From positions 1 through 56,410 of the IMG/VR virus record IMGVR_UViG_3300009446_000002: a stretch of 56,410 nt of DNA; one strand, given 5' to 3'. A program made the position numbers and the translations under genes. Below, piece by piece: positions 1 through 56,410 of the stretch; the stretch's first letter is position 1, and the number at the start of each line of letters is the position of its first letter. Under the pieces are notes generated by a model. The model had not been told where the DNA came from. It saw only the letters and a list, made by a program, of their open reading frames with translations, and did not search any database. This DNA is from a virus.

Positions 1-123
1 ACAACGGCTGCAGCACAAACCAGGGAAACTGTATAAATTTAACTGGCTGCGAATGCGATATAAGCTTAAGCGTTTCTGTTTCGAATTGCGTAGCTACTGC
101 TACACCTATAGGCGGTATAGGAC
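1..123. repeat. Terminal overlap, copy 1 (identical to 56288..56410); circular closure of the assembly
   Basis: Exact 123-nt identity read directly. It lies inside an ORF that stays in frame across the junction. Confidence 0.95.
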
Positions 124-569
124 CATTTACTTACGACTGGGAATTCGGCTTAACGAATACTTCTTCTAATGCACAGGCTTATAATGTAGACGGAAACTAC
201 AGCGTAACTGTTACAGATAACTTAGGCTGTACTGCAGTACAAAGTTTTGTAATTTCTGGCTGCGAATGCCTTTCTGGGAATGTAGACTGCGATATAGATA
301 TTATAACTCTAAATAATTCTAACTGTACAGTAGACGTAGAAATAAGCGGCGCCGATTGCTTAGGTAGTGGCGTTACTTATGAATTAAGGCAATACGACAA
401 CCCTATCGGATGCTTCGGCGGAACCTTACAAATAATAGAAGCTGGTCCAGTAACTTCTACTTCATTTACCCTAAATATAGATAGCGGCTTCCGTTACAGC
501 GTTCGACTTTATGACTGTAACGGGAACACCGTTTCGACTTCTATCTGTCTTCCTACTTCGAACTGCTAA
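1..569 (+). CDS. 3' part of the 1447-aa SprB-repeat, Cys-rich tail-fibre/adhesin-like protein (continues from 52513..56410 across the circular junction)
   Basis: Frame 3 is open from nt 3 to TAA 567-569. Nt 1-123 equal 56288-56410 and are in phase with the ORF starting at 52513. Encodes one more SprB-type unit (GGIGPFTYDW...NYSVTVTDNLGC). Confidence 0.8.
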   Translation, partial: NGCSTNQGNCINLTGCECDISLSVSVSNCVATATPIGGIGPFTYDWEFGLTNTSSNAQAYNVDGNYSVTVTDNLGCTAVQSFVISGCECLSGNVDCDIDIITLNNSNCTVDVEISGADCLGSGVTYELRQYDNPIGCFGGTLQIIEAGPVTSTSFTLNIDSGFRYSVRLYDCNGNTVSTSICLPTSNC

Positions 570-1410: not shown

Positions 1411-1622
1411 TTAGAAAATTAAAATTTAAGTACTACACAGGAAAAGAAAAGATCAACGGAAAGAATAGACTTTCTGGTCGTGTAAATGATTCTTTACTTT
1501 TTGATACTACAGTATTTAGGGACGAAGTAAATAACTACACAAACGTAGTAAGCGACCACCTGCAGGAAAAGGGAATTACTTTCTATTCTTTATCTATAAC
1601 TTCATATAAAAGGCTTAAGTAA
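1407..1622 (+). CDS. Hypothetical protein
   Basis: ATGA overlap with the upstream stop. Same-strand array. Confidence 0.5.
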   Translation: MIRKLKFKYYTGKEKINGKNRLSGRVNDSLLFDTTVFRDEVNNYTNVVSDHLQEKGITFYSLSITSYKRLK

Positions 1623-1853
1623 ATGGCAAAAATTATTGAAATTCCAGGAATGATATTCGTTAACGGAATGAACGACTTTAAAAGAATGCTTATAGTATAT
1701 CCAGACGGGAAAAGGGGAAAATTTGATTCTTCAAAATTTCCGCAGGGAATACTTAAGTCATATAAAGATCAAAGCGACTACAATAAAAATAAGTTAAGCT
1801 TCGATAAAAAATACGACTATATACACTTTGTAAAAATTGAAGACTGTAAATGA
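1623..1853 (+). CDS. Hypothetical protein
   Basis: Starts 1 nt after the upstream stop. Same-strand array. Confidence 0.5.
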   Translation: MAKIIEIPGMIFVNGMNDFKRMLIVYPDGKRGKFDSSKFPQGILKSYKDQSDYNKNKLSFDKKYDYIHFVKIEDCK

Positions 1854-2137
1854 TTATAATGAAAAACATATTTATATATATTGTCCCTTTAGTTCTAATG
1901 AACTGCTTTTCTGAAATGTGCAAAGACTTTGAAGAAGCAGGAATTACTTTAAACGAAGTAACAGTTAAGGGAATCACTTTAAACCCCTGCGGCTTAGACG
2001 ATATTTCTATAAAGCGATTAGCTGAAATAATAGAACCAGGTGAAACGATAAAAGTAGAATACAGTTCCGTCATTAAAGACGGAATTATAAATATGACTTT
2101 TGGAAATGGAAAAGGAAGAAAGGCAAAGGAAGAATAA
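1850..2137 (+). CDS. Hypothetical protein with N-terminal hydrophobic segment (possible signal or lipoprotein)
   Basis: ATGA overlap with the upstream stop. MIIMKNIFIYIVPLVLMNC... is a hydrophobic N-terminus ending in Cys. Confidence 0.45.
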   Translation: MIIMKNIFIYIVPLVLMNCFSEMCKDFEEAGITLNEVTVKGITLNPCGLDDISIKRLAEIIEPGETIKVEYSSVIKDGIINMTFGNGKGRKAKEE

Positions 2138-2579
2138 ATCTGCTATAGTAAAAATAGTAGACAATTCGATCGACGTAGATATAAAAAGAACGCTTAACGA
2201 AAAAGAACTTCTTCGCTATCGAAAGATTAGAGTAGAGGCGCTTTTTCGGGTTCTTAATGTTAGCGCAGAATGTAACGTAGTTTTCGAAGATAGATACAGG
2301 GGTGTTTATAATCCAATTACGAATACTTTAAGGGCAGGAAAAATTCGTTCCTTAATTGCGGAAGTAGCACATTGTAAACAGATGGAAGAAAGCGGAAAAA
2401 TAATTTTTTATTTGCGCGGAATTTTAGACTGGATTCGGGCGCCTTACTTTTCAAAAAAAGGCTATTCGAATGTTCAATATTCTACTTATGGTTCTTTAGA
2501 ATACGAAGCGCACAAAAAAATTGAAAAAGAACTTTACGAATATTATTACTTATTAATAGAAACCTTCGAATATGAGTAA
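2100..2579 (+). CDS. Hypothetical protein
   Basis: 159-aa ORF. Start is uncertain (ATG 2100 or 2106) and overlaps the upstream gene by about 35 nt. Confidence 0.5.
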   Translation: MEMEKEERQRKNKSAIVKIVDNSIDVDIKRTLNEKELLRYRKIRVEALFRVLNVSAECNVVFEDRYRGVYNPITNTLRAGKIRSLIAEVAHCKQMEESGKIIFYLRGILDWIRAPYFSKKGYSNVQYSTYGSLEYEAHKKIEKELYEYYYLLIETFEYE

Positions 2580-2775
2580 GCTACACTTCGAAAGATTACC
2601 GAAAGAAAAGCATTCAGAACTTTTAGACCTGGTTAAAAATAATATGAAAAAAAAGCTTAGGGAATTGCACGATAAATATAAATTAACGGACTTCGACTAT
2701 TCTGGCTGCTGCGCTGTAGATGGATTAATAATTCACTTAGAAAGATATATTAAGGCTGGATATTTTGGCAAGTAA
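2572..2775 (+). CDS. Hypothetical protein
   Basis: Short ORF overlapping its neighbours by a few nt. Confidence 0.45.
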   Translation: MSKLHFERLPKEKHSELLDLVKNNMKKKLRELHDKYKLTDFDYSGCCAVDGLIIHLERYIKAGYFGK

Positions 2776-2974
2776 AAACGAATTATATAAACACGTCATA
2801 GACGCTTATAAGATAGAAGAAGGAATCCAGAAAAAATTCTATCATATTCCATTAAAGCACCTGCAGACTATGGCTATTCTATACGACTACGCAGAAGGCG
2901 ACACCTACGCCACAATAGCCAAACGCTACAAAATAACAGCCAGGGCGGTCGAATACATTATAAAAGGAAGGTGA
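2765..2974 (+). CDS. Small helix-turn-helix protein (regulator or small-terminase candidate)
   Basis: TTG start. The C-terminus TYATIAKRYKITARAVEYIIKGR resembles a sigma-70 region-4/LuxR-type HTH. Lies just upstream of the head module. Confidence 0.4.
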   Translation: MASKNELYKHVIDAYKIEEGIQKKFYHIPLKHLQTMAILYDYAEGDTYATIAKRYKITARAVEYIIKGR

Positions 2975-3021
2975 AATGCACGTGATAGCGTGTATTTTAT
3001 GGGTTTTAATATAATTCCCTA

Positions 3022-3029
3022 TAGTTTTG
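3022..3029 (+). promoter_or_regulatory. Bacteroidetes-type -7 promoter box TAGTTTTG (TAnnTTTG), 5 nt before ATG 3034
   Basis: Exact TAnnTTTG in one of the few intergenic gaps. The upstream ATTCCCTATA (3014-3023) recurs at 43740-43749. Confidence 0.35.
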
Positions 3030-3033
3030 TTTT

Positions 3034-4422
3034 ATGGAAGAATTAGTAATTCCGATTTTAGAAGATATAGATTCTAGCGAATACTGGGGATTTAATGTAA
3101 AAACTTTAGTAGCTGCAGCTACAGGATTCGAAGGCGAAAGAATCCGAATTCCTATAAATACTTACGGCGGTTCTGTCTTCGAAGGCTTCGCTATCCATGC
3201 AGTAATAAAATCTTTCGACCAGGAAACTATAGCCGATGTTTTAGGCTACGTTATGTCTATAGGAACTTACATAACTACTGCAGCCGATAAGGTGACAATG
3301 CCTAAAGGTTCTTACTATATGATTCACGAACCATATAACTTCATAAGCGGAACTGCAGAAGAATCTAAAAAGAACTTCGAATTCTTAGACGGATTAGCGA
3401 ACACGATCGCGAAAGCGTATTCCGAAAAAGTAAAAAATAAGGCTGGTTTTAGCGTAGAGGAAATACGCGAAATGATGAAAGAAGAAACCTGGCTTACTGC
3501 AGAAGAAGCTTTCGAATTTGGCTTCGTAGATGAAGTAAGAAACGAAGAAGCTGTATTTAATAAATTTGACACTTCAAACTATAAAAATATTCCGATGAAA
3601 ATTAAAAAAATTCTTAATAAGAAAAAAGACACAAAGAACGGAACTTCTTTAGCTTCTGTTTTAAATAATGGAATCGAATCTATGATCTCCGACGACATGA
3701 CCAGGGCGGAAATTATTTCTGGAATGGCAGACGCGGCTGGCATAGAGTCTGGAACGGTAAACCAAATTTTAAACGGCGACATAGACTGCCCAGGCTGGGA
3801 AGACAGAATAGTGCCTTTCGCTAATTACTTAAATATTTCTCAACAGTCATTAGAAGACGCTGGAAAAACTGACGGATGCCCTTATGGGGAAACGGAAGAC
3901 AAAAAAGTCGAAGACAAAAAAACTACAAAAGACGAATTAACCTTAGCGCAAAAAGTTACAGCGAAAGTTAAAAATATTTTCGTAAAAGAAGAAAACAAAA
4001 AAGTCGAAGGCGTCGAAGAAGTTGTCGTAGAATCTGTGCAGGCTGCTTCCGAAGAAATAGCTTTAAATATGGCTTCGCAGCTTTCGGAAAGAGACGCGAA
4101 AATATCCGAACTACAGGAAACTGTAAACCAGCTTATCGAATCGAATAACGCTTTAGTAGAAGATTCGAACGAAAAAACTACACAGTTAGAAGAACTTAAC
4201 GAAAGGGCTTTTAATGATGGAAAGAAAAAAAGCGAAAAGAAGTCGCCTTCGACTATAAACATAATCGACAACAAAACGAAGCCTTCGCCAGAAAACAAAA
4301 AGAAGAAGAAAGAAGACGAAGACGAAAAGCCTTTAGCTGGCGGAATATTTATGCACACTTTAAAAACTGGGAAGAAAATTACCGTTTCTTCTTTCAAACA
4401 ATTAACTAATAAAGAAAATTAA
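3034..4422 (+). CDS. ClpP-like (S14) prohead protease fused to a coiled-coil scaffold-like C-terminal region
   Basis: GYVMSIGTYI (Ser) and YYMIHEPY (His) match ClpP-family catalytic motifs. The C-terminal ~270 aa are Glu/Lys-rich coiled coil. Confidence 0.8.
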   Translation: MEELVIPILEDIDSSEYWGFNVKTLVAAATGFEGERIRIPINTYGGSVFEGFAIHAVIKSFDQETIADVLGYVMSIGTYITTAADKVTMPKGSYYMIHEPYNFISGTAEESKKNFEFLDGLANTIAKAYSEKVKNKAGFSVEEIREMMKEETWLTAEEAFEFGFVDEVRNEEAVFNKFDTSNYKNIPMKIKKILNKKKDTKNGTSLASVLNNGIESMISDDMTRAEIISGMADAAGIESGTVNQILNGDIDCPGWEDRIVPFANYLNISQQSLEDAGKTDGCPYGETEDKKVEDKKTTKDELTLAQKVTAKVKNIFVKEENKKVEGVEEVVVESVQAASEEIALNMASQLSERDAKISELQETVNQLIESNNALVEDSNEKTTQLEELNERAFNDGKKKSEKKSPSTINIIDNKTKPSPENKKKKKEDEDEKPLAGGIFMHTLKTGKKITVSSFKQLTNKEN

Positions 4423-4427
4423 ATCCA

Positions 4428-5693
4428 ATGGAATTAGAAATCGGAAGCGGACAAAGCCTATTTTATGATAATACGGCGATGTCTCAAATGATTAAAATAG
4501 ATACTTCATCGTCTATGTACATATTCGACGAAGCTGCAATTATTACACCACGAATTGACCAGAACGCGTTAGGGTGTTACACATTTGTAAATGTAGGATC
4601 AAACGGCGAAGCTATCTTCGGTTCTTTTGATACGCCAGAATTTAACCTGCGAGGCGGTTTACAGTCGTGCGTTTGGGACCCGTTAAAGTGCGGAAATAAA
4701 TTTGGGTCTAAAAGGGTTCCTACCTGCCCAATTAACCACCAGTCGGAACTTTGTATAGACGTAGCCTGGAAAGGTTGCTGGTCTTCTTTGCTTGGTGTAG
4801 GAAATGGAAAATACGACTGGGATTCTACCCAGGGCGCCGCTGCGCTTTTAGCGAAGGCTATCGGAAATAAGTTAAGAGGAATTGGAAACGATTTCTACTA
4901 CCTTATGCACTTGGCAGGCCACCCAATGATTCAAAAAAGTTACGAAAATGGCTGGTATAAGATCAATGGAGTAGACCCGAAAAAATTCGAATGCTTTAGA
5001 CAAATGATGGCAGCCTGTAACGGCGGCTTCCTTACTATGGCAGACAGTCTTAGAAGCGTAGATAAGCTTCCGAATATGATGCTGAACATTCCCGACGCCT
5101 GGATAAGTGCAGACGGTTCTAAATTTATTGGCGACGCTATCGAATTATTTGACAGCCTTTGCGATAATTCTTCAGAAAAAATAGACGCTTTGGCGAAGGC
5201 TCCACAGAACGACAGAATGGCTTTGATCGGAGCCGCAAACCAGGACGGAAAACTTCTTATAAAAGTTTCGCCTTCTATCTTCGCAAGATATAAGAAGCAA
5301 CTGCAGCAGGAAAATAGAGGAATTCCACAGTCTTTCTATATTACGCTTTACGGCGAATCTTACGACTGCGACACTTGCGGCGACAGAATGGTAAGGGGCG
5401 CCCTTATGTACGACGACAAAATAGTCGTATGTATGGACGAGTGGAAGAAGTTCGACAGAATGTTAGGAATACATACACATAGAGCAATTTTAGCAGTACC
5501 AGGAGTTTTCGGAATTGCTTACGATGTTCTTCCAAGTGAAGAAAACGGTTACGGAATAGAGATAACCAAATGGAAAACAGACCCTTATAAGGGAATGACT
5601 TTCTTTTCTGGTGACTTCTGCGCAGGTCCGACAATTTTAGACACAGAATGCTTAACAATGGCGCTTAATATCAAAACGCCTAAAGCAGCTTAA
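4428..5693 (+). CDS. Major capsid protein candidate
   Basis: 421-aa ORF immediately downstream of the protease/scaffold gene. The assignment is positional only. Confidence 0.55.
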   Translation: MELEIGSGQSLFYDNTAMSQMIKIDTSSSMYIFDEAAIITPRIDQNALGCYTFVNVGSNGEAIFGSFDTPEFNLRGGLQSCVWDPLKCGNKFGSKRVPTCPINHQSELCIDVAWKGCWSSLLGVGNGKYDWDSTQGAAALLAKAIGNKLRGIGNDFYYLMHLAGHPMIQKSYENGWYKINGVDPKKFECFRQMMAACNGGFLTMADSLRSVDKLPNMMLNIPDAWISADGSKFIGDAIELFDSLCDNSSEKIDALAKAPQNDRMALIGAANQDGKLLIKVSPSIFARYKKQLQQENRGIPQSFYITLYGESYDCDTCGDRMVRGALMYDDKIVVCMDEWKKFDRMLGIHTHRAILAVPGVFGIAYDVLPSEENGYGIEITKWKTDPYKGMTFFSGDFCAGPTILDTECLTMALNIKTPKAA

Positions 5694-5705
5694 AAAACTT
5701 TGAAG

Positions 5706-6395
5706 ATGAAAAAGCAAATAATAAATTTAACTCTTTCCTTTATCGCTATTTATTTAGCGGTAAAGGGTTTTTTCGAACCTGCAGGGGCGGCTTTTGCTGC
5801 TTTGGGTTTAGGCGGAATCGACGCTACTTCTTCGGAAGGCTGCGAAGACTGCGACAGCGGATTAGCGCGTCTTTTGGTTTTGGAATGTGACGCTATCGAC
5901 TTAGACGCTACGGTCTTCGACCCAGAAACAGGCTGTATTACTTCCTTAGCAATTACAGGAACAGGATTAGGCGGACTTTATATTCCAGACAAAGACGACA
6001 CTTCTTTCTTAAATTTTATAGGAGAAAGACCAAACGACGGCGCTGTTCATAATGTGAATGTAGATGGATTTACAAAGTTTAAATGTTTGAATAAGAACAA
6101 AGTTTCGGAAGCAAATAAACTTAAGAAAGGCTGCTGTTTTATTCTCATAGCAGAATATAACGACTGTAATGTAATGGTAGCTGGCTTAGATATTATTTCT
6201 AACTGTTCAGTAGACGGCGAAGTAAGATTTTCGAAAAGAGAAATAAAAGGAACAGTTTCTTTGTACGGCGGAACGGGCGCAGACGAATCGAGAATGGAAG
6301 TAATTTGGTCTGGTCAACAAAGGTGCTTTACAGCGTTAGACCAGGACCTTCAAACTTTTGATGATATTTTAACGGCGGCTGGTGTAGCTGCGTAA
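5706..6395 (+). CDS. Hypothetical protein with N-terminal transmembrane or signal segment
   Basis: ATG 5706 (the track uses TTG 5700). N-terminus KKQIINLTLSFIAIYLAVKGFF is hydrophobic. Confidence 0.5.
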   Translation: MKKQIINLTLSFIAIYLAVKGFFEPAGAAFAALGLGGIDATSSEGCEDCDSGLARLLVLECDAIDLDATVFDPETGCITSLAITGTGLGGLYIPDKDDTSFLNFIGERPNDGAVHNVNVDGFTKFKCLNKNKVSEANKLKKGCCFILIAEYNDCNVMVAGLDIISNCSVDGEVRFSKREIKGTVSLYGGTGADESRMEVIWSGQQRCFTALDQDLQTFDDILTAAGVAA

Positions 6396-6405
6396 ATAAA
6401 AAAAA

Positions 6406-6846
6406 ATGGCAGAAAAAAAATACGAATATAGACTTAAGCAAAGAAGGAAGCCTGTTATTCTTCAAACGATATTCGGGCGACTTTTTAACTTAGGAACTAA
6501 GGGAGCGTTTACCAGAAATGTAGACGAAACGAAAGAAGGCGACGAAGCCTACGACCTAAAAGTCTATGAACCAGGACAGAAGGAACTGAAAGAATTCTAT
6601 AGTCGCGGAAAACAAAAGGTTGTTCTTAAAGTGGACCTATCGGAAGAAAAGGAATTTTTAGCCGAACAGGAAAGGCTATCTAGCCAGCATAAAGAACAAG
6701 TAACTACAGCAGAAAGCGAAAAGGCGGAAGAATTAAAGAAGCTTAAAGTTCAACTGCAGGAAGTACAGAAAGATACTAACCTAACCGAACAACAAAAATC
6801 GGCAAAGGTTAAAATACTACAGAATCAAATAGAAAAATTTAGTTAA
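6406..6846 (+). CDS. Coiled-coil Lys/Glu-rich hypothetical protein
   Basis: 146-aa ORF with heptad-like charged composition. Confidence 0.5.
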   Translation: MAEKKYEYRLKQRRKPVILQTIFGRLFNLGTKGAFTRNVDETKEGDEAYDLKVYEPGQKELKEFYSRGKQKVVLKVDLSEEKEFLAEQERLSSQHKEQVTTAESEKAEELKKLKVQLQEVQKDTNLTEQQKSAKVKILQNQIEKFS

Positions 6847-6864
6847 GATCAAAATGCTAAAGAC

Positions 6865-8253: not shown

Positions 8254-8872
8254 AGCGGACTACATAATAGGAGTAAGGGACGTATTTAATAATACTGACA
8301 TAAGCCAGGACGAAAGCCCGAAGAACGTCTGCAGATATTTAGATTGTGCAGTCTTAGCGCTTAAGAAATGTTTTGGAACTTACTATAAGCAAATTATAGG
8401 AAGCATAGCGGAATATAAAACTGCTGTTCTTTGGTGCCCAGAACTTTTCACGATCGGAAAAATAGTCTATTATGAAGGCTGCTATTACGAACGAATCGAA
8501 GAAGAAGAACACGACGTAGAGCAGGCGCCTTACTGTTCTGCAGGCTGGAAGAAGTTAGATAAGTTTAAATCTGAATGTTTAAATGAAATTTGGAACGAAC
8601 TTTCGAAATATTTATCTGCAGTAGTTCACTATGAAGCCTTTCCTTTTTTGGAATCTACGAACGATACAGACTTAGCGGCGGACTGGTATAATATAAAGAT
8701 CAGAGCGCTACAAAAGCAATGCAATAAAAGGCTGCAGATTTTGAAAGATAGAATTATAGAGATTTGCGAAGAAGGTCGCTGCCAGGAATTTTTACAAATA
8801 GATTTTGTAAACGATGTTTGCGGCAAAGCAGAATGTAAAACAGATAGTAACGGCTGCGTAGGATGGAGATAA
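8246..8872 (+). CDS. Hypothetical structural-module protein
   Basis: TTG start overlapping the upstream stop. 208 aa. Confidence 0.5.
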   Translation: MNKADYIIGVRDVFNNTDISQDESPKNVCRYLDCAVLALKKCFGTYYKQIIGSIAEYKTAVLWCPELFTIGKIVYYEGCYYERIEEEEHDVEQAPYCSAGWKKLDKFKSECLNEIWNELSKYLSAVVHYEAFPFLESTNDTDLAADWYNIKIRALQKQCNKRLQILKDRIIEICEEGRCQEFLQIDFVNDVCGKAECKTDSNGCVGWR

Positions 8873-9252: not shown

Positions 9253-9271
9253 TTTTAAAAAAAACAATATT

Positions 9272-10156: not shown

Positions 10157-10157
10157 T

Positions 10158-10982: not shown

Positions 10983-10993
10983 AATTTAATACT

Positions 10994-48128: not shown

Positions 48129-48131
48129 AAT

Positions 48132-49283: not shown

Positions 49284-49294
49284 AAATAAAATAA

Positions 49295-52200
49295 ATGTCT
49301 ACCTGCGCTTCGATAACAATTCTTAAACAGTTTTCATTTATACCGAATCATTTAACCGATTCGAGCGGCTTTGTAAATTTAGATTTACCAGCTAAATTTT
49401 CATTCCAGGAAAACAAAGTCTTAGGAGAATTAAATGACTTAGGAAAACTTACATTTAATTACATTACTGGAATACAAATAGAGAACAGCGAAAAGAATAA
49501 GATTTTAGCGCGAAACATATTACACCCGAATAACGAATTTCGATGCGAACCTTTAGCTGCTTTAATTTCTTCTGGTTGTGCTACGAATACAGATAACGAA
49601 ATATTATTTAAAAAATATTCTAACGATAGAATAGAAGTAGACGTAGTTACGAAGGTTAACGACTGGGCAAAAAAACTGGCGCTATGTAGTCTTTCGGAAT
49701 TATACAAAGACGAAGAATTTGTTTTTACCTGCGACAATGTTTTAGCTAATATTCAAAGTCAAAACACCTACCAAGTCGGAAACCCAGGATTTACTTTTCC
49801 AGAAGCTTTCTATGGTAATTCGCATTCTTCCCAGGGCTTAGGTTATGACATTACACAAACAGACGGAACAGAAGAAGGCTGCGGAACTTCCGACGGTTCT
49901 ATAGAGTTTTCGCAGAATCCTATTACTTACAATTCGAAGAACGTCTGCAAAGCATTAACACAGCAGCGCCCCTGGTTATTTGCAGCAAATGTTTTCGAAC
50001 GCGCTTTCTGCAAAGTCGGAAAGCCTTTTAGTTCGCCTTTATTAGAAAGCGAATTTGGTAGCCGAATAATGACTTTAAATCTAAATAAGGAATACGGAAC
50101 AGGCGACGAAAAATATTTACTAAATATGGCTGCAGAACATAATACTTCTGTAGGCCCTACTACTGTTCTATGGAATGAAAAGAACGGACTGGCAGGCTGT
50201 CACTATTTACCGAATACTATCTTAGATAACGGCGGCGGATTTAACGGAAGAAATTACTGCGGCGTAGGAACCGTAAAAGTAAAAGGAAGTTTTAAATTTA
50301 GATTCGACGACGATCGCGAAAATAATAGTTTTGTTCATGTTACATTTATAAAGAGAACAAAGGGCGGCGGCGGAACTACAGGCTCAATTTATAAACAGGT
50401 TCTTATAAATGAATGGAAGAAAGACCAGGAATTCTGTATAGAGATAGACGAAGAAATTTCTATTTCAGAAAAGCAGGAACTTTGTTTGCACTATTGGCGG
50501 TCTAATTCAGATATAGAAATATTTCAGCTACAGGGTTCTTCTTTACAAATAGAAGGCTGTAGGAAACTTTGGGAAGACGGCGACGTAGTAAAAATGTCGG
50601 ACCTTATTTCTTCCGAAGTAACTGCTTTAGATTACGTTAAGGGAATAACCGAAGCTTTAAATTTAAAATGGTTCGAAGACCCGAAGACCTGCAAAATAAT
50701 TGCCTTGCAGCCTTACGAGATCACAAAGTTAGACGAAACAGTCCCAGGCTTCTTCGACGAATTAGAACTTATAGATTGGACAGAAAAAGCAAACGAAAAA
50801 AATATTTGCGTAACTGCACCAGAAATTAATTCGCCGCGTTATTGTTTACTGAAATATAAAGAAGCTACAGATTTATTTTTAAAAGATAACGAAAACTTCC
50901 CTGTAGATTTATGGAGCCGAACAATAGACCTGGGCGAAAAGTTTACTTCCGACGAAACTAAGGAAAGGGAAAACCCTTTATTCGAACCCGTAATAAATGA
51001 AACTGGCGGCGGTCTTAATTCTATGCTTCTACAAAGTAAAGACGGCGAAGACTCCTGGTGCTTAGGTAATAAGATCGCTTTTTCTTACGGTCTTCGCGAC
51101 AGCTTCCACGTAGATACTTCCGCATTCACTACAGGCGACCCGAACTTCCCTTTCGGCGACTCCTGGGAAAAGACTTCTTTCCTTAATTGTAAACACGAAG
51201 AACAGACTACGACCTTAATAGCTGGTCAATATATACCAGGCTATCTTAGTCCAGAAGGCGGCGGAACTACTTCGGAAATTCTGCAGGGTGCAGAAATAGA
51301 CTGCAATGGAATTCTAACTTATGAAATTAACGCACACGGAAATCCTCCGAACATACAGACTGCTTACCATTTATTTTGGGCGCGTTACCTTCTGGAAAGT
51401 CTGCTGCAGATTCCTTTAGAATACATAGTTCCTTTAAGCTGCAAAGAATACGGCGAAATAAATTTCCGAAATAGGTACTTAGTTACAGTAGAAGGAAAGG
51501 CTGTCTTCGCAAGGCTTACGCGCGTCTTTGATTTTCAAGCCTGCAGGAATATTCCGACTCCTGTAGAATTTATCGCTATGAAGCCCTTAGTAGAACTTTG
51601 TGGAATAATTACACCAGACGGCGGAAGCGATAACAACGAACCTATCTGCTTAAACTTTCCTTCTTTCGATTGTCAAAAGATCGGAGAAAACTGGTTCGTA
51701 AGTATAGGCGGAAGTATGGAAGCGAATATAGATTCTGTTTTATGGGAATGTAGGACGCCAGGCGGAACCTGGGAAACTTTAGGCGAAACAGGTTCTTCTA
51801 TTATGATTACGCCTGCAGACTTTGGAAGCGAACCCTGCAAAGAAGTAAAGGCTACAGTTTCTTTTCTTCCTGTAAATGGCGTAGAATGTTTACCTATTAC
51901 GCTTCCGAATAAAAAGCTTTTAAACTGCGTAGAAGTTATTCCAGTTTTAGACTGCGTAGTAACTACGCAAGGGACTCAAATCTGCGCTTCTGCCGTAGTC
52001 GATGCACAGGGCGAAGCTTATACTGCTAACCTATATGTAGATTTAAACGACGGAAACGGAAACCAGCCTTATAATGAATCTACTTTAATCTGCGGACTTA
52101 CTGCAGCGCCTACCTTCGGCGGAACGGTAGACTTTACAGAAGATAATTGCGACCCTGTAGACCTTATAGAATTGACCTGCGAAATTCCAGACTTAGTATG

Positions 52201-52516
52201 TCCAGTAGGTCCGCTTACTGCGCACTTTATATGCGACGGCGACTGCTGGACTGCAGAACGCGGCGAATACCAGGGAACAGATATAAACTTCTTAGGCTAC
52301 CAGGTAATAGATAGATTCTTATTCCGATGCTGGGACGACGAAGCGAACGATTGGGGCGAATGGTGTTTCTATAAAGAAAAAGTTTGCTGCAATAAAGTCG
52401 AATTTATGCGAACAGTAGAATTCTGCGACGCCGACTGCCCTAAGATGAAAAGCGAAATTTACACCTGCGATAAAAACAATGTAGACCCAGGACAAAACAC
52501 AGTAATAGTATTATGA
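49295..52516 (+). CDS. Large tail/baseplate protein (Tal position), C-terminal third Cys-rich
   Basis: 1073-aa ORF. Positional assignment. No signal peptide. Confidence 0.55.
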   Translation: MSTCASITILKQFSFIPNHLTDSSGFVNLDLPAKFSFQENKVLGELNDLGKLTFNYITGIQIENSEKNKILARNILHPNNEFRCEPLAALISSGCATNTDNEILFKKYSNDRIEVDVVTKVNDWAKKLALCSLSELYKDEEFVFTCDNVLANIQSQNTYQVGNPGFTFPEAFYGNSHSSQGLGYDITQTDGTEEGCGTSDGSIEFSQNPITYNSKNVCKALTQQRPWLFAANVFERAFCKVGKPFSSPLLESEFGSRIMTLNLNKEYGTGDEKYLLNMAAEHNTSVGPTTVLWNEKNGLAGCHYLPNTILDNGGGFNGRNYCGVGTVKVKGSFKFRFDDDRENNSFVHVTFIKRTKGGGGTTGSIYKQVLINEWKKDQEFCIEIDEEISISEKQELCLHYWRSNSDIEIFQLQGSSLQIEGCRKLWEDGDVVKMSDLISSEVTALDYVKGITEALNLKWFEDPKTCKIIALQPYEITKLDETVPGFFDELELIDWTEKANEKNICVTAPEINSPRYCLLKYKEATDLFLKDNENFPVDLWSRTIDLGEKFTSDETKERENPLFEPVINETGGGLNSMLLQSKDGEDSWCLGNKIAFSYGLRDSFHVDTSAFTTGDPNFPFGDSWEKTSFLNCKHEEQTTTLIAGQYIPGYLSPEGGGTTSEILQGAEIDCNGILTYEINAHGNPPNIQTAYHLFWARYLLESLLQIPLEYIVPLSCKEYGEINFRNRYLVTVEGKAVFARLTRVFDFQACRNIPTPVEFIAMKPLVELCGIITPDGGSDNNEPICLNFPSFDCQKIGENWFVSIGGSMEANIDSVLWECRTPGGTWETLGETGSSIMITPADFGSEPCKEVKATVSFLPVNGVECLPITLPNKKLLNCVEVIPVLDCVVTTQGTQICASAVVDAQGEAYTANLYVDLNDGNGNQPYNESTLICGLTAAPTFGGTVDFTEDNCDPVDLIELTCEIPDLVCPVGPLTAHFICDGDCWTAERGEYQGTDINFLGYQVIDRFLFRCWDDEANDWGEWCFYKEKVCCNKVEFMRTVEFCDADCPKMKSEIYTCDKNNVDPGQNTVIVL

Positions 52517-55500
52517 TGAAAAAAATATTTATTCTTATTCTGCTTTTTATGCTAGTCGTGCAGACTTGCTTTTCGCAGATAGACCCTTCTAATATTTGCT
52601 TATTTGACATTATAGAAGGAAATCCGTCTACAGGCGGAACGATCGAAATTACAGACGACCCTACAGGAACGCTTAATACTACTTACGACTGGGACGAATC
52701 CTGCGTAGACCTTTCTTCTTTAGAATGCGAAGTAGTTACTTTTACTTACTGTGTAGAAGGCGACTGCCCAGAACCCGAATTCGTAAACTGTGACGAAATA
52801 TGTACAGAACATGAAATAATAAAAGGCTTTACAGAATTAGACTGCGACTGGACACAAAGGCAGGACCCTGTAGCTGGTTCCGGTCCCTGGGACGTTTTTA
52901 CGCCAGGCTGTAGCGCGACAATTTGCAGCGACGGCGTTAACGACTTCTGGTTCCGACTTATTCCGAACGGAATTACTTCGGACGACGACTGCGAACTTAC
53001 AGGACCTTACGGAACTATAGACTTAAGTTTAAACGGTGCAGGAATTATGTTTAATGTAGATCAGACGCATTCTGGAACTTATACCTGGATTTGCTTCGAA
53101 GGTGACGAACTGTGCGAACAGTCTGGCGAATTCATTTTAGAAATAGAACCCTGCGACGATTGTAGCTTAATGTGCGGAAGTCCGATCGTAGAAAACAATA
53201 TTTGCGAATCTACGGACTTAGGAATAATTTCTTTTTGTATTACTGGCGGAATAGCGCCTTATTCCTGGACTACGGTAGACGGAACTATTACTTCTTCTAA
53301 TTTTTGTGAAGAACTTTTCGTAGATGCAAGCAGCGGAACTTATTTTGTAACTGTAACGGATGCGAACGACTGCGAAGTAATTTGCGAAGCAGAAATAATT
53401 TCAGAAGATAACGAAGACTTCCTTTGCGAAGTAGAAACAGAACCAGACAACTGCGCACAGTCCACAGGCGAGGCTACTGCAAACCAGACAGGCGGAACAG
53501 CGCCCTTTAGTTATCAATGGGATAACGGCGGAACTACTGAAACGATAACAGGACTTTCCGAAGGAGTTTACTGTGTAACTATTGTAGATAATTTTGGCTG
53601 TGAAGTTTCCTGCTGCGAATCCGTAATAAATGTAGAAAGTAATTTAATTTGTGATATTACAGAAACGAACGAAAGCTGCGCAGGAAACGACGGAACGCTT
53701 TCTGTAAATACTTTAAACGGTCCTGCACCGTTTTTATATAATTGGAGCAATGGACAAAATACAAACCCTATAAGCGGATTAACTGCAGGAATTTATTCTT
53801 TAACAGTTACAGACGCAGACGGCTGTTCTGCTGTTTGTGAAGGCGAAGTAGTTTACGAATGCGTTTGCGATTTAGAAATTATTTCTTTATTTCCAGAAGA
53901 CTTCTGCCCAGGTGAAGAAGGAAGCATACAGGTATTTTATTCTGGCGGAACAGCACCTTATTCTATTATTTGGTCTAATGGAGAAACTACGAACCCTATT
54001 ACTGTAAATACTGCAGGAAGTTATTCGGTAACGGTTACAGATACAAACGACTGCGAATCTATAGGCGTAGGAAATGTAAACGAATATCCTGCGCCGACTT
54101 GTTCGGTAGTAACAACGGAAACAGAATGTACTTCGCCGACAGGGACAGTAGAAGTAAATGTAGTCGGCGGAACGCCTTCTTATTCTTATTTGTGGTCGGA
54201 CGGTTCTACTTCTTCTTCTGTTACTGGACTGTCTGCAGGAATCTATTCGGTAACTGTTACAGATTCGAACGGATGCGTTACAGAATGCGAAGGCGAAGTA
54301 GAGGAATTCGAAGCGAATGATGGAAACTGTAGAACACGAATCCAGGGCGGACAATGGGAAAATACGTGCTTTATAAATTTCTGCCCTAACGATGGGCTTA
54401 TAACTTTCTTAGATGTGCAGCCAGGCGGTAATACAAATAACTGCTTTATAGTTTCGCCTTCTACAATTACTTATAATGCGAACAATGGAATAAACGGTCT
54501 TTTTGTAATAGACGATTCTATAGAAGAAGAAGGCGCCTGGGTATCAACGTGCGAAGATTCGAACGGATGCACATATAATATAACTTTCTTTTTAACAGAA
54601 GACTGCCCCTGTAATTTAGTTCCTGTTTGTTCTGCAGAAGATGAAACCTGCACAGATTACGACGACGGAATAATAGAAGTAACACCTACAGGCGCTAATT
54701 ACGTCTGGTCGGACGGACAAACAACGAATCCAGCTATAGGATTAGAACCAGGAACTTATTTTGTAACGGTAACAGATTCGAATGGATGTTCTGGAACCTG
54801 CGAAGGAGAAGTAGAAGAAGCGACTTTAGGCGGAATAGTTCTTAACGGCGACTGTTCGTCTTTAACTTGGTTCTGGTCGCCCTATCCTGGCGGTTCTGGT
54901 GCTTACTTTACTCAATGGTTTTTAGACGGCGTTTTTATTTCGAACGGCGATCCTATAACGCCGATAGGAACAGGAACTTACACAGCGATAGTTTCTTATT
55001 CTGGAACTGGTAATAATTGCGACTATACAGGACCAGGACTTTTCTTAGATTGTACTGCAGGCTGCACAGACCCAGTAGTAAGTATTTCGGGCGGATGCAC
55101 GATATTAACTTCTTCTATTTCGGGCGCCTGCCCTTCGCCTACTTATCAATGGTTTCTAAATGGTGCTGCAATTTCGGGCGCGACTTCTTCGACATATAGT
55201 CCGCCGCCTAATATTTCGGGCTTTATTAATTTACAGGTTCTTTGTTCGAATGGATGCGACGACACGTCTAACAGTATTTCTTTAAACTGCGGCTGCACAG
55301 ACCCAGTAGTAAGTATTTCGGGCGGATGCACGATGTTAACTTCTTCTATTTCGGGCGCCTGCCCTGGTGCTTCTTATCAATGGTTCTTAAATGGTTCTGC
55401 TGTTTCTGGTGCAACTTCTTCGACCTGGACACCACCTGCAGGAACTTCTGGAAATGTTCTTTTAGATGTAAATTGTAGTAACGGCTGCGGCGATTCTTCA

Positions 55501-56410
55501 AACGGAATTTCGCTTAACTGCGGCTGTACGGACCCAGTAGTAAATATTTCTGGTTCCTGTGCTTCTGGACTGTCTTCTTCTATTTCTGGTTCCTGTCCGT
55601 CGCCTTCTTATAATTGGATTTTTAACGGGAACACTATTTCGACTTCTTCTTCTGTTACTTCTTCTATAGTGCAGGCGAACGGAAACGGAACCTATTTACT
55701 TTTAGTAACTTGTTCTAATGGCTGCGGCGACAATTCGTCTATATTTATTTCAGACTGTGTAGACCCATGCGAAAGCTGTTCTATAACTGTTTCTACAAAT
55801 AGCTGCGAATTAATTTACTCAATAGTAGGCGCAGGATGCGCAGGGCGTCCCTGGCAAATACAATTCCAGGACGGCTGTTCTGGTTCTTTTGCGACAGTAT
55901 CTACAGGAAACGGAACAGGAAACGGAAGCTACACAATAGACGAAGACGGATGCTACAGAATTTTTATGCCTGCTTCTGGAAACTGCCCTGCAGAATTTTC
56001 GAACATAGCTTCTTTTTCTGGCTGTGAAGTTTCCTGCGACTGCGACGTAGTTTTGATCGACGACGGCGACTGCACACTAAGCGCAATAGTTTCGGGTTCG
56101 GCTTCTGACTGTGCAAACTACGATTTAATAATAGTTAAATTTAATTCTTCTGGCTGCAGCGGTTCTACCTGTACATTAGAATTCTTTCCAGGAGCAGCAC
56201 CAGGAACATATTTTGCAAATGATATAGAAAAGAATGCCTGTTCTTCTTATGATAACGACACAGGCTACAGGGCGACTTTGATCGGAAACAACGGCTGCAG
56301 CACAAACCAGGGAAACTGTATAAATTTAACTGGCTGCGAATGCGATATAAGCTTAAGCGTTTCTGTTTCGAATTGCGTAGCTACTGCTACACCTATAGGC
56401 GGTATAGGAC
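52513..56410 (+). CDS. 5' part of the 1447-aa exported, Cys-rich SprB-repeat protein (tail-fibre position); continues at 1..569
   Basis: ATG 52513 has an ATGA overlap with the upstream stop. I translated the whole stretch and found no stop to the window end. Signal peptide MMKKIFILILLFMLVVQTCFS|Q. At least six SprB-type units between about 53200 and 54820. Confidence 0.8.
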   Translation, partial: MMKKIFILILLFMLVVQTCFSQIDPSNICLFDIIEGNPSTGGTIEITDDPTGTLNTTYDWDESCVDLSSLECEVVTFTYCVEGDCPEPEFVNCDEICTEHEIIKGFTELDCDWTQRQDPVAGSGPWDVFTPGCSATICSDGVNDFWFRLIPNGITSDDDCELTGPYGTIDLSLNGAGIMFNVDQTHSGTYTWICFEGDELCEQSGEFILEIEPCDDCSLMCGSPIVENNICESTDLGIISFCITGGIAPYSWTTVDGTITSSNFCEELFVDASSGTYFVTVTDANDCEVICEAEIISEDNEDFLCEVETEPDNCAQSTGEATANQTGGTAPFSYQWDNGGTTETITGLSEGVYCVTIVDNFGCEVSCCESVINVESNLICDITETNESCAGNDGTLSVNTLNGPAPFLYNWSNGQNTNPISGLTAGIYSLTVTDADGCSAVCEGEVVYECVCDLEIISLFPEDFCPGEEGSIQVFYSGGTAPYSIIWSNGETTNPITVNTAGSYSVTVTDTNDCESIGVGNVNEYPAPTCSVVTTETECTSPTGTVEVNVVGGTPSYSYLWSDGSTSSSVTGLSAGIYSVTVTDSNGCVTECEGEVEEFEANDGNCRTRIQGGQWENTCFINFCPNDGLITFLDVQPGGNTNNCFIVSPSTITYNANNGINGLFVIDDSIEEEGAWVSTCEDSNGCTYNITFFLTEDCPCNLVPVCSAEDETCTDYDDGIIEVTPTGANYVWSDGQTTNPAIGLEPGTYFVTVTDSNGCSGTCEGEVEEATLGGIVLNGDCSSLTWFWSPYPGGSGAYFTQWFLDGVFISNGDPITPIGTGTYTAIVSYSGTGNNCDYTGPGLFLDCTAGCTDPVVSISGGCTILTSSISGACPSPTYQWFLNGAAISGATSSTYSPPPNISGFINLQVLCSNGCDDTSNSISLNCGCTDPVVSISGGCTMLTSSISGACPGASYQWFLNGSAVSGATSSTWTPPAGTSGNVLLDVNCSNGCGDSSNGISLNCGCTDPVVNISGSCASGLSSSISGSCPSPSYNWIFNGNTISTSSSVTSSIVQANGNGTYLLLVTCSNGCGDNSSIFISDCVDPCESCSITVSTNSCELIYSIVGAGCAGRPWQIQFQDGCSGSFATVSTGNGTGNGSYTIDEDGCYRIFMPASGNCPAEFSNIASFSGCEVSCDCDVVLIDDGDCTLSAIVSGSASDCANYDLIIVKFNSSGCSGSTCTLEFFPGAAPGTYFANDIEKNACSSYDNDTGYRATLIGNNGCSTNQGNCINLTGCECDISLSVSVSNCVATATPIGGIG
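55060..55752 (+). repeat. Three tandem 231-bp (77-aa) coding repeats inside the SprB-repeat gene
   Basis: Units start at 55060, 55291 and 55522 (GGCTG(C/T)AC(A/G)GACCCAGTAGTAA...). The first 76 nt of units 1 and 2 differ at one position. Confidence 0.85.
56288..56410. repeat. Terminal overlap, copy 2 (identical to 1..123)
   Basis: Exact identity read directly. Confidence 0.95.

What the first reader, a model, noticed from the sequence alone, without database searches (positions are those of the whole stretch)
1..56410. The palindrome CTGCAG is about 10-fold over-represented, with at least 11 copies of CCTGCAGG
Scanning every line by eye, I counted about 78 distinct CTGCAG sites, roughly one per 0.7 kb. 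I also found 11 CCTGCAGG sites, at 1559, 5778, 14469, 33010, 35729, 37650, 45136, 45750, 46242, 51540 and 55435. I assumed roughly 40% G+C. On that assumption a composition-only model predicts about 7-8 CTGCAG and well under one CCTGCAGG. One-off variants looked near expectation: CTGCAA about 14, TTGCAG about 8, GTGCAG about 9, ATGCAG about 7. I noticed no CAGCTG, a palindrome of identical composition. CTGCAG sites occur in all three codon phases (NCT-GCA-G, CTG-CAG, C-TGC-AG). At least 15 Leu-Gln pairs are encoded CTG-CAG, although CTG is otherwise a rare Leu codon here (TTA and CTT dominate). This argues for selection at the DNA level. Some sites sit in longer perfect palindromes: GTACTGCAGTAC at 229-240, CTACTGCAGTAG at 643-654 and CTTACTGCAGTAAG at 14601-14614. 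The distribution is patchy. The site is dense in the tape measure gene and absent from about 11300-14040, 20110-23140 and 37900-41150. Phages usually avoid 6-bp palindromes because they are restriction sites. An excess recalls the highly iterated palindrome HIP1 of cyanobacteria and their phages. It could mark a binding or modification motif, or a host repair bias.
Basis: seen in the sequence. Interest (0 to 1): 0.65.

Follow-up and report, generated by a model that had tools for sequence, protein, structure and literature searches.

The report
Phage genome crowded with CTGCAG palindromes
A complete 56-kb marine Bacteroidota phage genome carries 78 copies of the palindrome CTGCAG, two to four times more than its proteins, codon usage and short-word composition can explain; the cause of this real DNA-level signal is unknown, and it resembles the 'highly iterated palindromes' of cyanobacteria.

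Summary
The window holds 79 CTGCAG. That is 78 unique sites, because the contig ends overlap by 123 nt and the genome is a closed circle.

Expected CTGCAG counts are 5-7 from composition or dinucleotide shuffles and 19-21 from synonymous-codon shuffles. With dinucleotides also preserved the expectation is 27, and with all trinucleotides preserved about 39. A cross-validated context model trained only where the hexamer cannot form gives 20-31. About half of the "10-fold" is therefore low-order composition (CTG/CAG and GC are favoured). A 2-4-fold hexamer-specific excess remains, in all three codon phases.

The excess is uniform along the genome: 36% of the 214 positions where the protein allows the site carry it. 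The patchiness reflects protein composition. Only one other palindrome, CGATCG, behaves the same way. TTCGAA (109 copies), GAATTC and AAGCTT are explained by trinucleotides.

The phage encodes no DNA methyltransferase. Its relatives do not share the motif, but several have their own hyper-abundant palindrome. The best reading is a HIP-like iterated palindrome tied to host methylation, and this is unproven. Very-short-patch-type (Vsr-like) repair and "sink for avoided words" explanations were tested and are not supported.

The parts
1..56410 (.). 79 CTGCAG sites (78 unique). Start positions: 8, 232, 646, 1560, 2861, 3113, 3278, 3353, 3497, 5301, 5779, 6754, 7105, 8329, 8538, 8616, 8732, 9598, 10071, 10098, 11280, 14073, 14470, 14605, 15654, 16130, 16339, 17043, 17306, 19907, 20103, 23136, 24042, 26122, 28195, 28613, 28680, 28978, 29491, 31883, 32858, 33011, 33065, 35471, 35730, 37651, 37892, 41151, 41184, 41319, 45137, 45656, 45751, 46243, 46331, 46436, 46478, 46724, 46778, 46853, 47756, 48947, 48965, 50130, 51281, 51404, 51541, 51813, 52101, 52251, 53783, 54011, 54233, 54632, 55055, 55436, 55988, 56154, 56295
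   Evidence: All sites lie inside + strand ORFs, in phases 51/17/10. Flanking positions carry no information.
1559..55442 (.). 11 CCTGCAGG sites (a subset of the above) starting at 1559, 5778, 14469, 33010, 35729, 37650, 45136, 45750, 46242, 51540 and 55435
   Evidence: 11 observed against 0.16 expected from dinucleotide shuffles. Given the CTGCAG and heptamer counts, 5.8 are expected, so the 8-mer adds only about 2-fold.
2167..53188 (.). 19 CGATCG sites, the second hexamer-specifically enriched palindrome. Start positions: 2167, 3404, 8451, 9804, 16802, 19419, 24750, 27504, 28262, 28688, 31868, 34725, 36712, 39033, 45386, 46770, 50311, 52640, 53183
   Evidence: 19 observed against 8.4 +/- 3.1. 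The trinucleotide-preserving null gives 5.0. The masked model gives 4-8 against 18 in ORFs.
1..123 (.). Terminal overlap: bases 1-123 are identical to 56288-56410. The contig is a closed circle of 56,287 bp, and site 8 is the same site as 56295.
44350..47982 (+). Tape measure protein gene. It holds 11 CTGCAG sites among 28 synonymous opportunities (39%, the genome average).
   Evidence: PHROG tape-measure hits; opportunity count
23567..25024 (+). Terminase large subunit, used to find relatives
   Evidence: phrog_38, 2e-60. The nearest relative is 48% identical.
52513..56410 (+). Gene for a 1447-aa SprB-repeat protein with a type IX secretion (T9SS) sorting domain. It runs across the circle junction and ends at window position 569. 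This is a Bacteroidota host signature. The gene holds 10 sites among 29 opportunities.
228..241 (.). Longest perfect palindromes centred on a site: TGTACTGCAGTACA here, and also 643-654, 3109-3122 and 14601-14614
   Evidence: Four sites have arms extended by 3 or more bases, against about 1.5 expected, which is not significant.
35828..36466 (+). MmcB-like nuclease-fold protein of the PD-(D/E)XK type, with conserved D36..E50-x-K52. It is the only repair-nuclease-like gene found. A link to the motif is pure speculation.
   Evidence: AlphaFold model pLDDT is 79.5. The best Foldseek hit is 3dnx, E = 2e-4.
30075..30677 (+). ParB-like N-terminal domain protein. It matches only the ParB part of ParB-methyltransferase fusions and has no methyltransferase domain.

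Best explanation
CTGCAG, and to a lesser degree CGATCG, is a lineage-specific iterated palindrome. It is kept at high density over the whole double-stranded genome by a pressure that reads the 6-bp duplex word itself, not codons, peptides or shorter words.

My preferred mechanism runs as follows. The two words are targets of long-resident DNA methyltransferases of the host (PstI-type and PvuI-type specificity; orphan, or part of a system against which the phage is always modified). They are therefore the few palindromes that are safe in this host. Methylated copies are then positively favoured, as proposed for the HIP palindromes of cyanobacteria. Sites accumulate wherever the protein sequence allows.

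Shown:
- The excess is hexamer-specific.
- It appears in all phases.
- It is uniform along the genome.
- It occurs in a genome otherwise strongly shaped by word avoidance.
- It is not inherited from relatives.
- No phage methyltransferase exists.

Inferred:
- That a host methyltransferase recognises these words.
- That methylation, rather than another protein, is what gives the advantage.
For: - Hexamer specificity. Models trained only at positions where the hexamer cannot form predict 20-31 copies against 78 observed. CTGCAG ranks 2nd and CGATCG 3rd of 1,334 hexamers tested.
- After conditioning on proteins, codon usage and all trinucleotides, these are the only two significantly enriched palindromes of 64.
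- All three codon phases are enriched: 17 against 3-4, 51 against 14-21, and 10 against 4-6.
- The Ala codon GCA is used 77% of the time when flanked by CT..G, against 20% otherwise.
- Peptides that permit the site are themselves in excess: 117 against 80 (z = 4.2), and LQ 59 against QL 35.
- 36% of 214 opportunities are realised, homogeneously along the genome (p = 0.70).
- The same two trinucleotides in the other order, CAGCTG, are absent (0 against 11-16 expected). So a duplex hexamer is being discriminated.
- C-to-T products are in excess. The product of the inner C of CTGCAG (CTGTAG/CTACAG) is 83 against 48-62. The product of the outer C of CGATCG (TGATCG/CGATCA) is 17 against 5-8. This is as expected if those cytosines were methylated hot spots.
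- The trait is lineage-specific and recurrent. The nearest relative lacks it. Other phages of the family carry other hyper-abundant palindromes: CTCGAG 44 against 8.8, GGCGCC 30 against 10.4, GTTAAC 19 against 3.6, and CCCGGG 11-13 against 1-2.
- One relative (L141) has an SPPY-motif DNA methyltransferase next to its CCCGGG excess.
- Site density of about 1 per 0.7 kb matches the roughly 1 per kb of HIPs (PMC4390886).
Against: - No methylation data exist. The host and its genome are unknown, so the key link (a cognate methyltransferase) is untested.
- The phage itself has no methyltransferase.
- About half of the raw excess is low-order composition.
- Maximal-order Markov (71 against 78) and Karlin's measure (1.0) do not flag the word. 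Both measures are blunt when a word dominates its own sub-words.
- No site lies in the 5% of non-coding DNA.
- Why methylated sites should be advantageous to a phage is not known.
- No close relative exists with which to test site conservation.
Confidence: 0.35

Rival explanations
1. Compositional by-product. The excess has no cause of its own. It is the sum of this genome's strong strand-symmetric short-word biases (a palindromic hexamer is a trinucleotide plus its reverse complement, so biases are squared) and displacement from the many forbidden neighbouring words.
For: - The largest single factor is the CTG/CAG trinucleotide: 2.0-fold given dinucleotides, with GC at 1.35-fold.
- Maximal-order Markov expectation is 71 against 78.
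- TTCGAA, GAATTC, AAGCTT and GGCGCC, which look enriched 3-6-fold, are fully explained by trinucleotides.
- Most apparent palindrome avoidance is explained the same way: the 26 absent palindromes sum to 245 expected at zero order but only 60 under the trinucleotide null.
Against: - Preserving proteins, codon usage and every trinucleotide still gives only about 39.
- Keeping all 330 absent hexamers absent adds only about 4 copies.
- Context models of order 2-4, trained outside the opportunity positions, give 20-31.
- The two flanks act synergistically across 6 nt.
- CAGCTG, with identical trinucleotides, is absent.
Confidence: 0.2
2. A working signal of the phage itself. The sites would be repeated docking or cutting sites for a phage or host protein that acts on duplex DNA. 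Possible roles are recombination or repair (the phage has its own recombination genes and an MmcB-like nuclease-fold protein), genome compaction, or packaging.
For: - Two of the top three hexamer-specific excesses are palindromes. This fits recognition by a symmetric dimer.
- There is evidence of pressure on protein sequence.
- For HIP1, conservation analyses favoured selection over biased repair (PMC5861425).
- The phage encodes a RecE/Gam-like domain protein, SSB, NinG and a PD-(D/E)XK-type protein.
Against: - There is no flanking context, no positional pattern, and no sites in intergenic or regulatory DNA.
- No DNA-binding protein can be tied to the word.
- Relatives with homologous genes lack the motif.
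Confidence: 0.2
3. Biased repair of the very-short-patch (VSP) type. A methylcytosine-linked T:G mismatch endonuclease of the host would convert near-cognate words into CTGCAG, as the Dcm/Vsr pair does for CCWGG in E. coli.
For: - The genome shows a general CpG excess (1.32) with a TpG/CpA deficit (0.67). This is the direction expected from over-active T:G to C:G correction.
- The effect is uniform genome-wide.
Against: - The predicted deficit of T-variants is absent. TTGCAG/CTGCAA is 31 against 25-35, and CTGTAG/CTACAG is 83 against 48-62, an excess.
- No Vsr-like gene is in the phage.
- The amino-acid-level effects would need a strong drive.
Confidence: 0.1
4. An RNA-level motif. All genes are on one strand, so CUGCAG could be selected in transcripts. 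For a palindrome this cannot be told apart from DNA-level selection by strand asymmetry.
For: All 78 sites are transcribed in the sense orientation.
Against: - There is no reason for RNA motifs to be palindromic, yet both top words are.
- No positional relation to gene starts or ends was seen.
- No structure partner or context exists.
Confidence: 0.05

Closest known systems
HIP1 and alternate highly iterated palindromes of cyanobacteria (GCGATCGC; Elhai 2015, PMC4390886; Xu et al. 2018, PMC5861425)
   Same: - A short G+C-rich palindrome at about one copy per kb.
- It occurs in all reading frames and is far above compositional expectation.
- Different lineages carry different palindromes.
- The second enriched word here, CGATCG, is the core of HIP1.
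   Different: - The word here is 6 bp, not 8 bp, and GCGATCGC itself has 0 copies.
- The excess is 11-15-fold over composition and 2-4-fold over strict nulls, against 15-300-fold for HIP1.
- It lies in a Bacteroidota phage, not a cyanobacterial chromosome.
- No cognate methyltransferase is in the same genome.
- No sites lie in non-coding DNA.
- Conservation and periodicity could not be tested.
Dcm/Vsr-driven excess of CCWGG in E. coli (very-short-patch repair; own knowledge)
   Same: A methyltransferase target palindrome is over-represented genome-wide through a DNA-level process.
   Different: The hallmark deficit of the T-containing one-off words is not seen here. The excess here is much larger.
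Over-representation of the R-M site CCGG in Helicobacter genomes (Rusinov et al. 2015, PMC4687349)
   Same: A Type II recognition palindrome is over-represented in a genome under heavy R-M pressure, and the authors could not explain it.
   Different: That case concerns a cellular genome that encodes the cognate system, with a modest excess (Kr about 1.4-1.5). Here the genome is a phage without the enzyme.
Restriction-site avoidance in phages (Rusinov et al. 2018, PMC6286503)
   Same: The same genome shows it strongly:
- CAGCTG 0, CCGG 2, GGCC 11, CATG 16, CTAG 17.
- CTGRAG 3 against 85 expected.
- CTCTTC, CCCGC, CTCAG and CACTG all 0.
   Different: CTGCAG and CGATCG go the opposite way.
DNA uptake sequences (USS/DUS) and Chi sites
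   Same: Short words iterated about once per kb inside genes.
   Different: Those are asymmetric, 7-12 nt long and orientation-biased. Here the word is a bare 6-bp palindrome with no flanking conservation.

Membership tests
HIP-type iterated palindrome | A palindromic word strongly over-represented genome-wide relative to composition | tested here: met
   78 copies against 5.4-6.9 expected. Still 2-4-fold over codon-, trinucleotide- and context-aware nulls.
HIP-type iterated palindrome | Present in every reading frame and also between genes | tested here: inconclusive
   All three frames are enriched. However, 0 of 78 sites lie in the 5% of the genome that is non-coding. About 4 would be expected if sites were uniform, fewer given the low G+C there.
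HIP-type iterated palindrome | A methyltransferase specific for the word is encoded in the same genome | tested here: not met
   No DNA methyltransferase domain was found by Pfam or PHROGs. No motif IV or C5 motif occurs in any frame. The host genome is unknown, so a host enzyme is not testable.
HIP-type iterated palindrome | Sites conserved between related genomes more than neutral positions | not testable with these tools
   The nearest relative has 48% terminase identity. The about 97% variant in a second run is covered only by short low-depth contigs.
HIP1 proper | The word is GCGATCGC | tested here: not met
   GCGATCGC has 0 copies.
VSP-repair (Dcm/Vsr-type) over-representation | The T-containing one-off word (deamination product) is depleted | tested here: not met
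   TTGCAG/CTGCAA is 31 against 25-35. CTGTAG/CTACAG is 83 against 48-62.
VSP-repair (Dcm/Vsr-type) over-representation | A Vsr-type endonuclease and a C5-methyltransferase are present | tested here: not met
   Neither is in the phage. The host is not testable.
Restriction-site avoidance | The recognition word is depleted relative to a context-aware expectation | tested here: not met
   CTGCAG is enriched. By contrast, CAGCTG is 0 against 11, ATCGAT 1 against 9 and GTCGAC 0 against 6.8.
Uptake sequence / Chi-like signal | An asymmetric word with strand or orientation bias and an extended consensus | tested here: not met
   The word is palindromic, and flank information content is 0.2 bit or less at every position.
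PstI/SbfI-type R-M target that is methylated in vivo | m6A or m5C at CTGCAG in virion DNA | not testable with these tools
   Only two short-read marine metagenome runs hold the sequence.

The most novel reading that the evidence does not exclude
Phages of this Bacteroidota group each maintain, by positive selection, their own iterated hexamer palindrome. Examples are CTGCAG here and CTCGAG, GGCGCC, GTTAAC and CCCGGG in relatives. Density is about one copy per 0.3-1.3 kb, without necessarily encoding the matching methyltransferase. This would be a phage counterpart of cyanobacterial HIPs. The word would be a functional genome-wide mark, for example one that recruits a host methyltransferase or another duplex-reading protein, rather than a tolerated leftover.
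Probability: 0.2. Interest if true: 0.75.

Novelty: new variant of a known kind. Interest (0 to 1): 0.5.

Why it matters
Over-represented restriction-type palindromes are rare and unexplained. HIP1 has been an open question for decades, and the CCGG excess in H. pylori is unexplained. A 56-kb phage with 78 dispersed copies, no methyltransferase of its own, and relatives that carry other palindromes would be a small, tractable system. It could be used to ask whether iterated palindromes are made by selection or by repair bias, and what reads them.

The result also has a practical side. Palindromic hexamers respond quadratically to strand-symmetric trinucleotide bias. Both 'avoidance' and 'enrichment' calls made against composition-only models are therefore badly inflated in such genomes.

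Tried and rejected
1. 'Sink' hypothesis (CTGCAG gains what forbidden neighbours lose). Synonymous MCMC that keeps all 330 absent hexamers absent raises the expectation only from 18.8 to 23.1.
2. Longer motif or repeat family. Flanks carry no information.
3. CTRYAG (SfcI-like) degenerate motif. CTATAG is at or below expectation.
4. Significance of the longer perfect palindromes and of CCTGCAGG. These are only about 2-fold beyond what the hexamer count gives.
5. Patchiness as a feature of the motif. It is explained by where proteins allow the site.
6. A phage methyltransferase protecting the site. None was found.
7. Inheritance from relatives or a family-wide signature. The motif is absent in 112 related loci; the median observed/expected ratio is 0.55.
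8. Host identification:
   - The terminase gives only Bacteroidota prophages at 38% identity or less.
   - The SprB protein gives only repeat-level hits.
   - No match was found in INPHARED phages with the tail region or the capsid gene.
9. Karlin's Kr and maximal-order Markov as tests. Both are near 1, but they are insensitive because the word makes up 41% of all TGCA and 68% of all CTGCA.
10. Polymorphism test with the second run. Contigs are too short and the listing is truncated.
11. The MmcB-like ORF as a Vsr- or MutH-like enzyme. The fold search gives only a generic PD-(D/E)XK or DUF1052 match.
Full report
**What the window is.** The first 123 nt repeat at the end, so the contig is a closed circle of 56,287 bp. 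About 95% is coding and every credible gene is on the + strand. The genome encodes the following:
- a head maturation protease, terminase large subunit and tape measure protein;
- NinG, SSB, an HNH endonuclease, a ParB-like domain protein, a PAPS-reductase-like protein and a RecE/Gam-like domain protein;
- one tRNA-Met;
- a 1447-aa protein with SprB repeats and a type IX secretion (T9SS) sorting domain, which runs across the junction.

The sequence comes from a marine metagenome. Independent Logan contigs of the same run agree with it, with 0-1 differences. The tail region (DNA search) and the capsid gene found no match among 50,697 deposited phages. The closest terminase in 5.8 billion proteins is 48% identical. 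More distant terminase relatives sit almost only in Bacteroidota genomes. One ORF has homologues in Flavobacterium phage FL-1 and in Chryseobacterium. The host is therefore a marine member of the Bacteroidota, probably Flavobacteriia, and it cannot be identified further.

**The observation.** Exact counts agree with the hand count: 79 CTGCAG (78 unique), 11 CCTGCAGG at the stated coordinates, and no CAGCTG. G+C is 37.7%. The zero-order expectation is 6.9 and the dinucleotide-shuffle expectation is 5.4 +/- 2.1. All sites lie in + strand ORFs, in phases 51 (xCT-GCA-G), 17 (CTG-CAG) and 10 (xxC-TGC-AGx). Positions flanking the hexamer carry no information, so this is not a piece of a longer repeat.

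**How much is explained by ordinary things.** I used a ladder of null models that keep the protein sequences.

| Null model | Expected CTGCAG |
|---|---|
| Synonymous codons permuted within genes | 20.5 +/- 4.1 |
| All dinucleotides also preserved | 27.0 +/- 3.8 |
| Every trinucleotide count also preserved (well-mixed chains) | about 38.5 (range 32-48) |
| All 330 absent hexamers forced to stay absent | adds only about 4 |

The word-by-word decomposition shows where the low-order part comes from. TG and CA are depleted (0.67), but CTG/CAG is 2.0-fold over its dinucleotide expectation and GC is 1.35-fold. The 4-mers and 5-mers add 1.1-1.3-fold each. The maximal-order Markov expectation is 71, and Karlin's measure is 1.0. 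These two measures are blunt here, because the hexamer supplies 41% of all TGCA and 68% of all CTGCA.

To avoid that circularity I listed every position where synonymous codon choice could create the word. These are 212-214 'opportunities'. I masked them all regardless of outcome and trained phase-specific Markov models of order 2-4 on the rest. I then predicted the codon choice at the masked positions. The prediction is 20-31 copies against 78 observed, z = 9-13. All three phases are enriched: 17 against 3-4, 51 against 14-21, and 10 against 4-6. Among 1,334 hexamers with at least 14 copies, CTGCAG ranks second and CGATCG third. The first, TAGAGG, is a coding by-product of AGA-GGx.

Direct codon evidence agrees:
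- 17 of 59 Leu-Gln pairs are CTG-CAG against 2.3 expected.
- Ala is GCA in 77% of cases when flanked by CT..G, but in 43%, 25% or 20% with one or no flank. This is a synergy across six bases.
- Peptides that allow the site are themselves in excess. [SPTA]-A-[VADEG] is 117 against 80 (z = 4.2; the reversed-order control has z = 2.1). LQ is 59 while QL is 35.

The conclusion is that roughly half of the raw '10-fold' is low-order composition, and a genuine 2-4-fold hexamer-specific excess remains.

**Distribution.** Spacing is slightly over-dispersed (P about 0.04). However, the fraction of opportunities realised (78 of 214, 36%) is homogeneous over 4-kb bins (chi-square p = 0.70) and over the large genes. 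The tape measure gene has 11 of 28. The patchiness therefore reflects where proteins are Ala-, Leu-Gln- or Cys-rich, not the motif. The longer perfect palindromes exist but are not more frequent than chance. CCTGCAGG (11) and GCTGCAGC (9) are about 2-fold above what the hexamer and heptamer counts predict.

**The surrounding landscape.** The genome has an unusually rugged word usage:
- 26 of 64 hexamer palindromes are absent.
- CCGG occurs 2 times, GGCC 11, CATG 16 and CTAG 17.
- Asymmetric words typical of Type IIS/IIG enzymes are missing on both strands. CTGRAG is 3 against 85 expected, CTCTTC 0, CCTGA 0 against 22, CCCGC 0 against 12, CACTG 0, CTCAG 0, and CCAGAT 1 against 21-28.
- CpG is in excess (1.32) and TpG/CpA is deficient (0.67).
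- The trinucleotide GAG/CTC stands at 0.21 of expectation. The CTC codon occurs 4 times among 1365 Leu codons.

A palindromic hexamer is a trinucleotide followed by its own reverse complement, so strand-symmetric trinucleotide bias enters squared. Conditional on trinucleotides, the 26 absent palindromes have a summed expectation of 60, against 245 at zero order. That is still a real extra avoidance, with CAGCTG (0 against 11) individually significant. TTCGAA (109 copies), GAATTC (62), AAGCTT (49) and GGCGCC (14) are as expected. Only CTGCAG (78 against 38.5) and CGATCG (19 against 5.0) are significantly enriched.

**Tests of mechanism.**
- *Displacement from forbidden neighbours* is too small.
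- *VSP-type repair* predicts a deficit of the T-containing one-off words, and none is depleted. TTGCAG/CTGCAA is neutral. CTGTAG/CTACAG (83 against 48-62) and TGATCG/CGATCA (17 against 5-8) are in excess. This looks more like C-to-T decay of abundant parent sites at particular cytosines, a hint of cytosine methylation but no more than that.
- *A phage methyltransferase* is excluded. There are no Pfam or PHROG hits, and no catalytic motif in any frame.
- *ORF 35828-36466* is an MmcB-like PD-(D/E)XK-type protein. Nothing links it to the word.

**Relatives.** The nearest relative (a 64-kb contig) has CTGCAG at 5 against 2.6 expected. It has the opposite dinucleotide signature (CpG 0.57) and carries a Tet/JBP gene. 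Across 112 related loci of at least 10 kb, the median observed/expected ratio for CTGCAG is 0.55 and the maximum is 7, in a Chryseobacterium daeguense prophage region.

Several relatives have their own hyper-abundant palindromes. These remain high over dinucleotide shuffles or a second-order Markov expectation:
- L136: CTCGAG 44 against 8.8, GAGCTC 37 against 13.
- L076: GGCGCC 30 against 10.4, GGATCC 31 against 9.6.
- L079: GTTAAC 19 against 3.6.
- L148: CTCGAG 12 against 1.4.
- L100 and L141: CCCGGG 11-13 against 1-2.

L141 encodes an SPPY-motif DNA methyltransferase beside its CCCGGG excess. Only 20 kb or less per relative could be read, so the absence of a methyltransferase elsewhere means nothing. 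The trait is therefore lineage-specific, evolves fast, and recurs with different words. That points to something host- or lineage-specific that reads duplex hexamers.

**Interpretation.** The closest known phenomenon is the family of highly iterated palindromes of cyanobacteria.
- Different lineages carry different palindromes there, each matched by a methyltransferase (PMC4390886).
- Conservation argues for selection rather than repair bias (PMC5861425).
- Over-representation of R-M sites is otherwise rare and unexplained, as with CCGG in Helicobacter (PMC4687349).

This case works like a HIP, but it fails or cannot be tested on several defining features. It is a 6-mer rather than an 8-mer, the genome has no methyltransferase, no intergenic copies exist, and conservation is untestable. 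I therefore file it as a new variant, not a member.

My best guess, at about 35%, is that CTGCAG and CGATCG are targets of resident host methyltransferases and that methylated copies are favoured. The rivals are a residual compositional by-product (20%), a direct phage signal (20%), VSP-type drive (10%) and an RNA motif (5%).

**Caveats.**
- Genes were called as longest non-overlapping ORFs.
- The masked model is over-dispersed. Many hexamers reach z = 4-7, so the rank (2 of 1,334) is a safer summary than the z value.
- The trinucleotide null is conservative, because the sites contribute to the counts it preserves.

Noticed in passing
window 1-123 and 56288-56410: The ends are identical, so the contig is a closed circular assembly of 56,287 bp. 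One CTGCAG (8 = 56295) and one GCTGCAGC are counted twice in the window.
   Followed up: yes
whole window: TTCGAA occurs 109-110 times (18.9 expected at zero order), more than CTGCAG. GAATTC occurs 62 times and AAGCTT 49-50. All three are fully accounted for by trinucleotide usage (GAA/TTC 1.97-fold, AAG/CTT 1.63-fold). They are not hexamer-specific.
   Followed up: yes
whole window: The trinucleotide GAG/CTC stands at 0.21 of expectation on both strands and in all frames. The CTC codon occurs 4 times among 1365 Leu codons, and GAG is 6% of Glu codons. What remains sits mostly in TAGAG/CTCTA. Relatives range from 0.04 (L080) and 0.14-0.16 (L076, L079) to 1.95 (L136). No explanation was found.
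   Followed up: partly
whole window; L002: CpG is in excess (rho 1.32) and TpG/CpA is deficient (0.67), except in CTG/CAG. The nearest relative has the opposite signature (CpG 0.57, TpG 1.11) and carries a Tet/JBP dioxygenase gene (L002:20235-21041).
   Followed up: partly
whole window: Asymmetric words resembling Type IIS/IIG/III sites are nearly absent on both strands. CTGAAG/CTTCAG is 3 against 59 expected and CTGGAG/CTCCAG 0 against 27. CTCTTC is 0, CCTGA 0 against 22, CCCGC 0 against 12, CACTG 0, CTCAG 0, and CCAGAT 1 against 21-28. The 4-mers CCGG (2), GGCC (11), CATG (16) and CTAG (17) are also rare.
   Followed up: partly
L136, L076, L079, L148, L100, L141 (IMG/VR relatives): Other phages of the same terminase family have their own hyper-abundant hexamer palindromes (CTCGAG, GAGCTC, GGCGCC, GGATCC, GTTAAC, CCCGGG) together with many absent palindromes. 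L141:1-879 encodes an SPPY-motif DNA methyltransferase next to a CCCGGG excess.
   Followed up: partly
window 52513-56410 continuing to 569: A 1447-aa Cys-rich protein with a signal peptide, SprB repeats and a T9SS sorting-domain hit spans the circle junction. It is probably a host-recognition or tail fibre protein borrowed from Bacteroidota surface adhesins.
   Followed up: partly
window 25065-26024: The ORF directly after the terminase gene matches the di-haem cytochrome c peroxidase family (CCP_MauG, E = 2e-11). This is unusual for a phage.
   Followed up: no
window 35828-36466: A conserved MmcB-like PD-(D/E)XK-type protein (D36, E50, K52 invariant in 27 homologues). It is shared with Flavobacterium phage FL-1, Chryseobacterium prophages and T4-like Aeromonas phages. 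Its function is unknown.
   Followed up: partly
window 42845-43696 and 30075-30677: A PP-loop (SGGxNS) PAPS-reductase-like protein and a stand-alone ParB-like nuclease-domain protein. This pair is often seen in phages and is sometimes discussed in connection with DNA modification. The two genes are not adjacent here.
   Followed up: no
window 1611-1879: A second marine run holds a variant about 97% identical, in which 267 bp are replaced by 27 other bases. It also has 3-bp indels at 13386 and 14783.
   Followed up: no
L032 (Chryseobacterium daeguense DSM 19388): This is the only related locus with a clear CTGCAG excess: 13 sites spread evenly over 21 kb, against 1.9 expected at zero order and 3.9 under a second-order Markov model. 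TTCGAA is absent there (0 against 7.3).
   Followed up: partly
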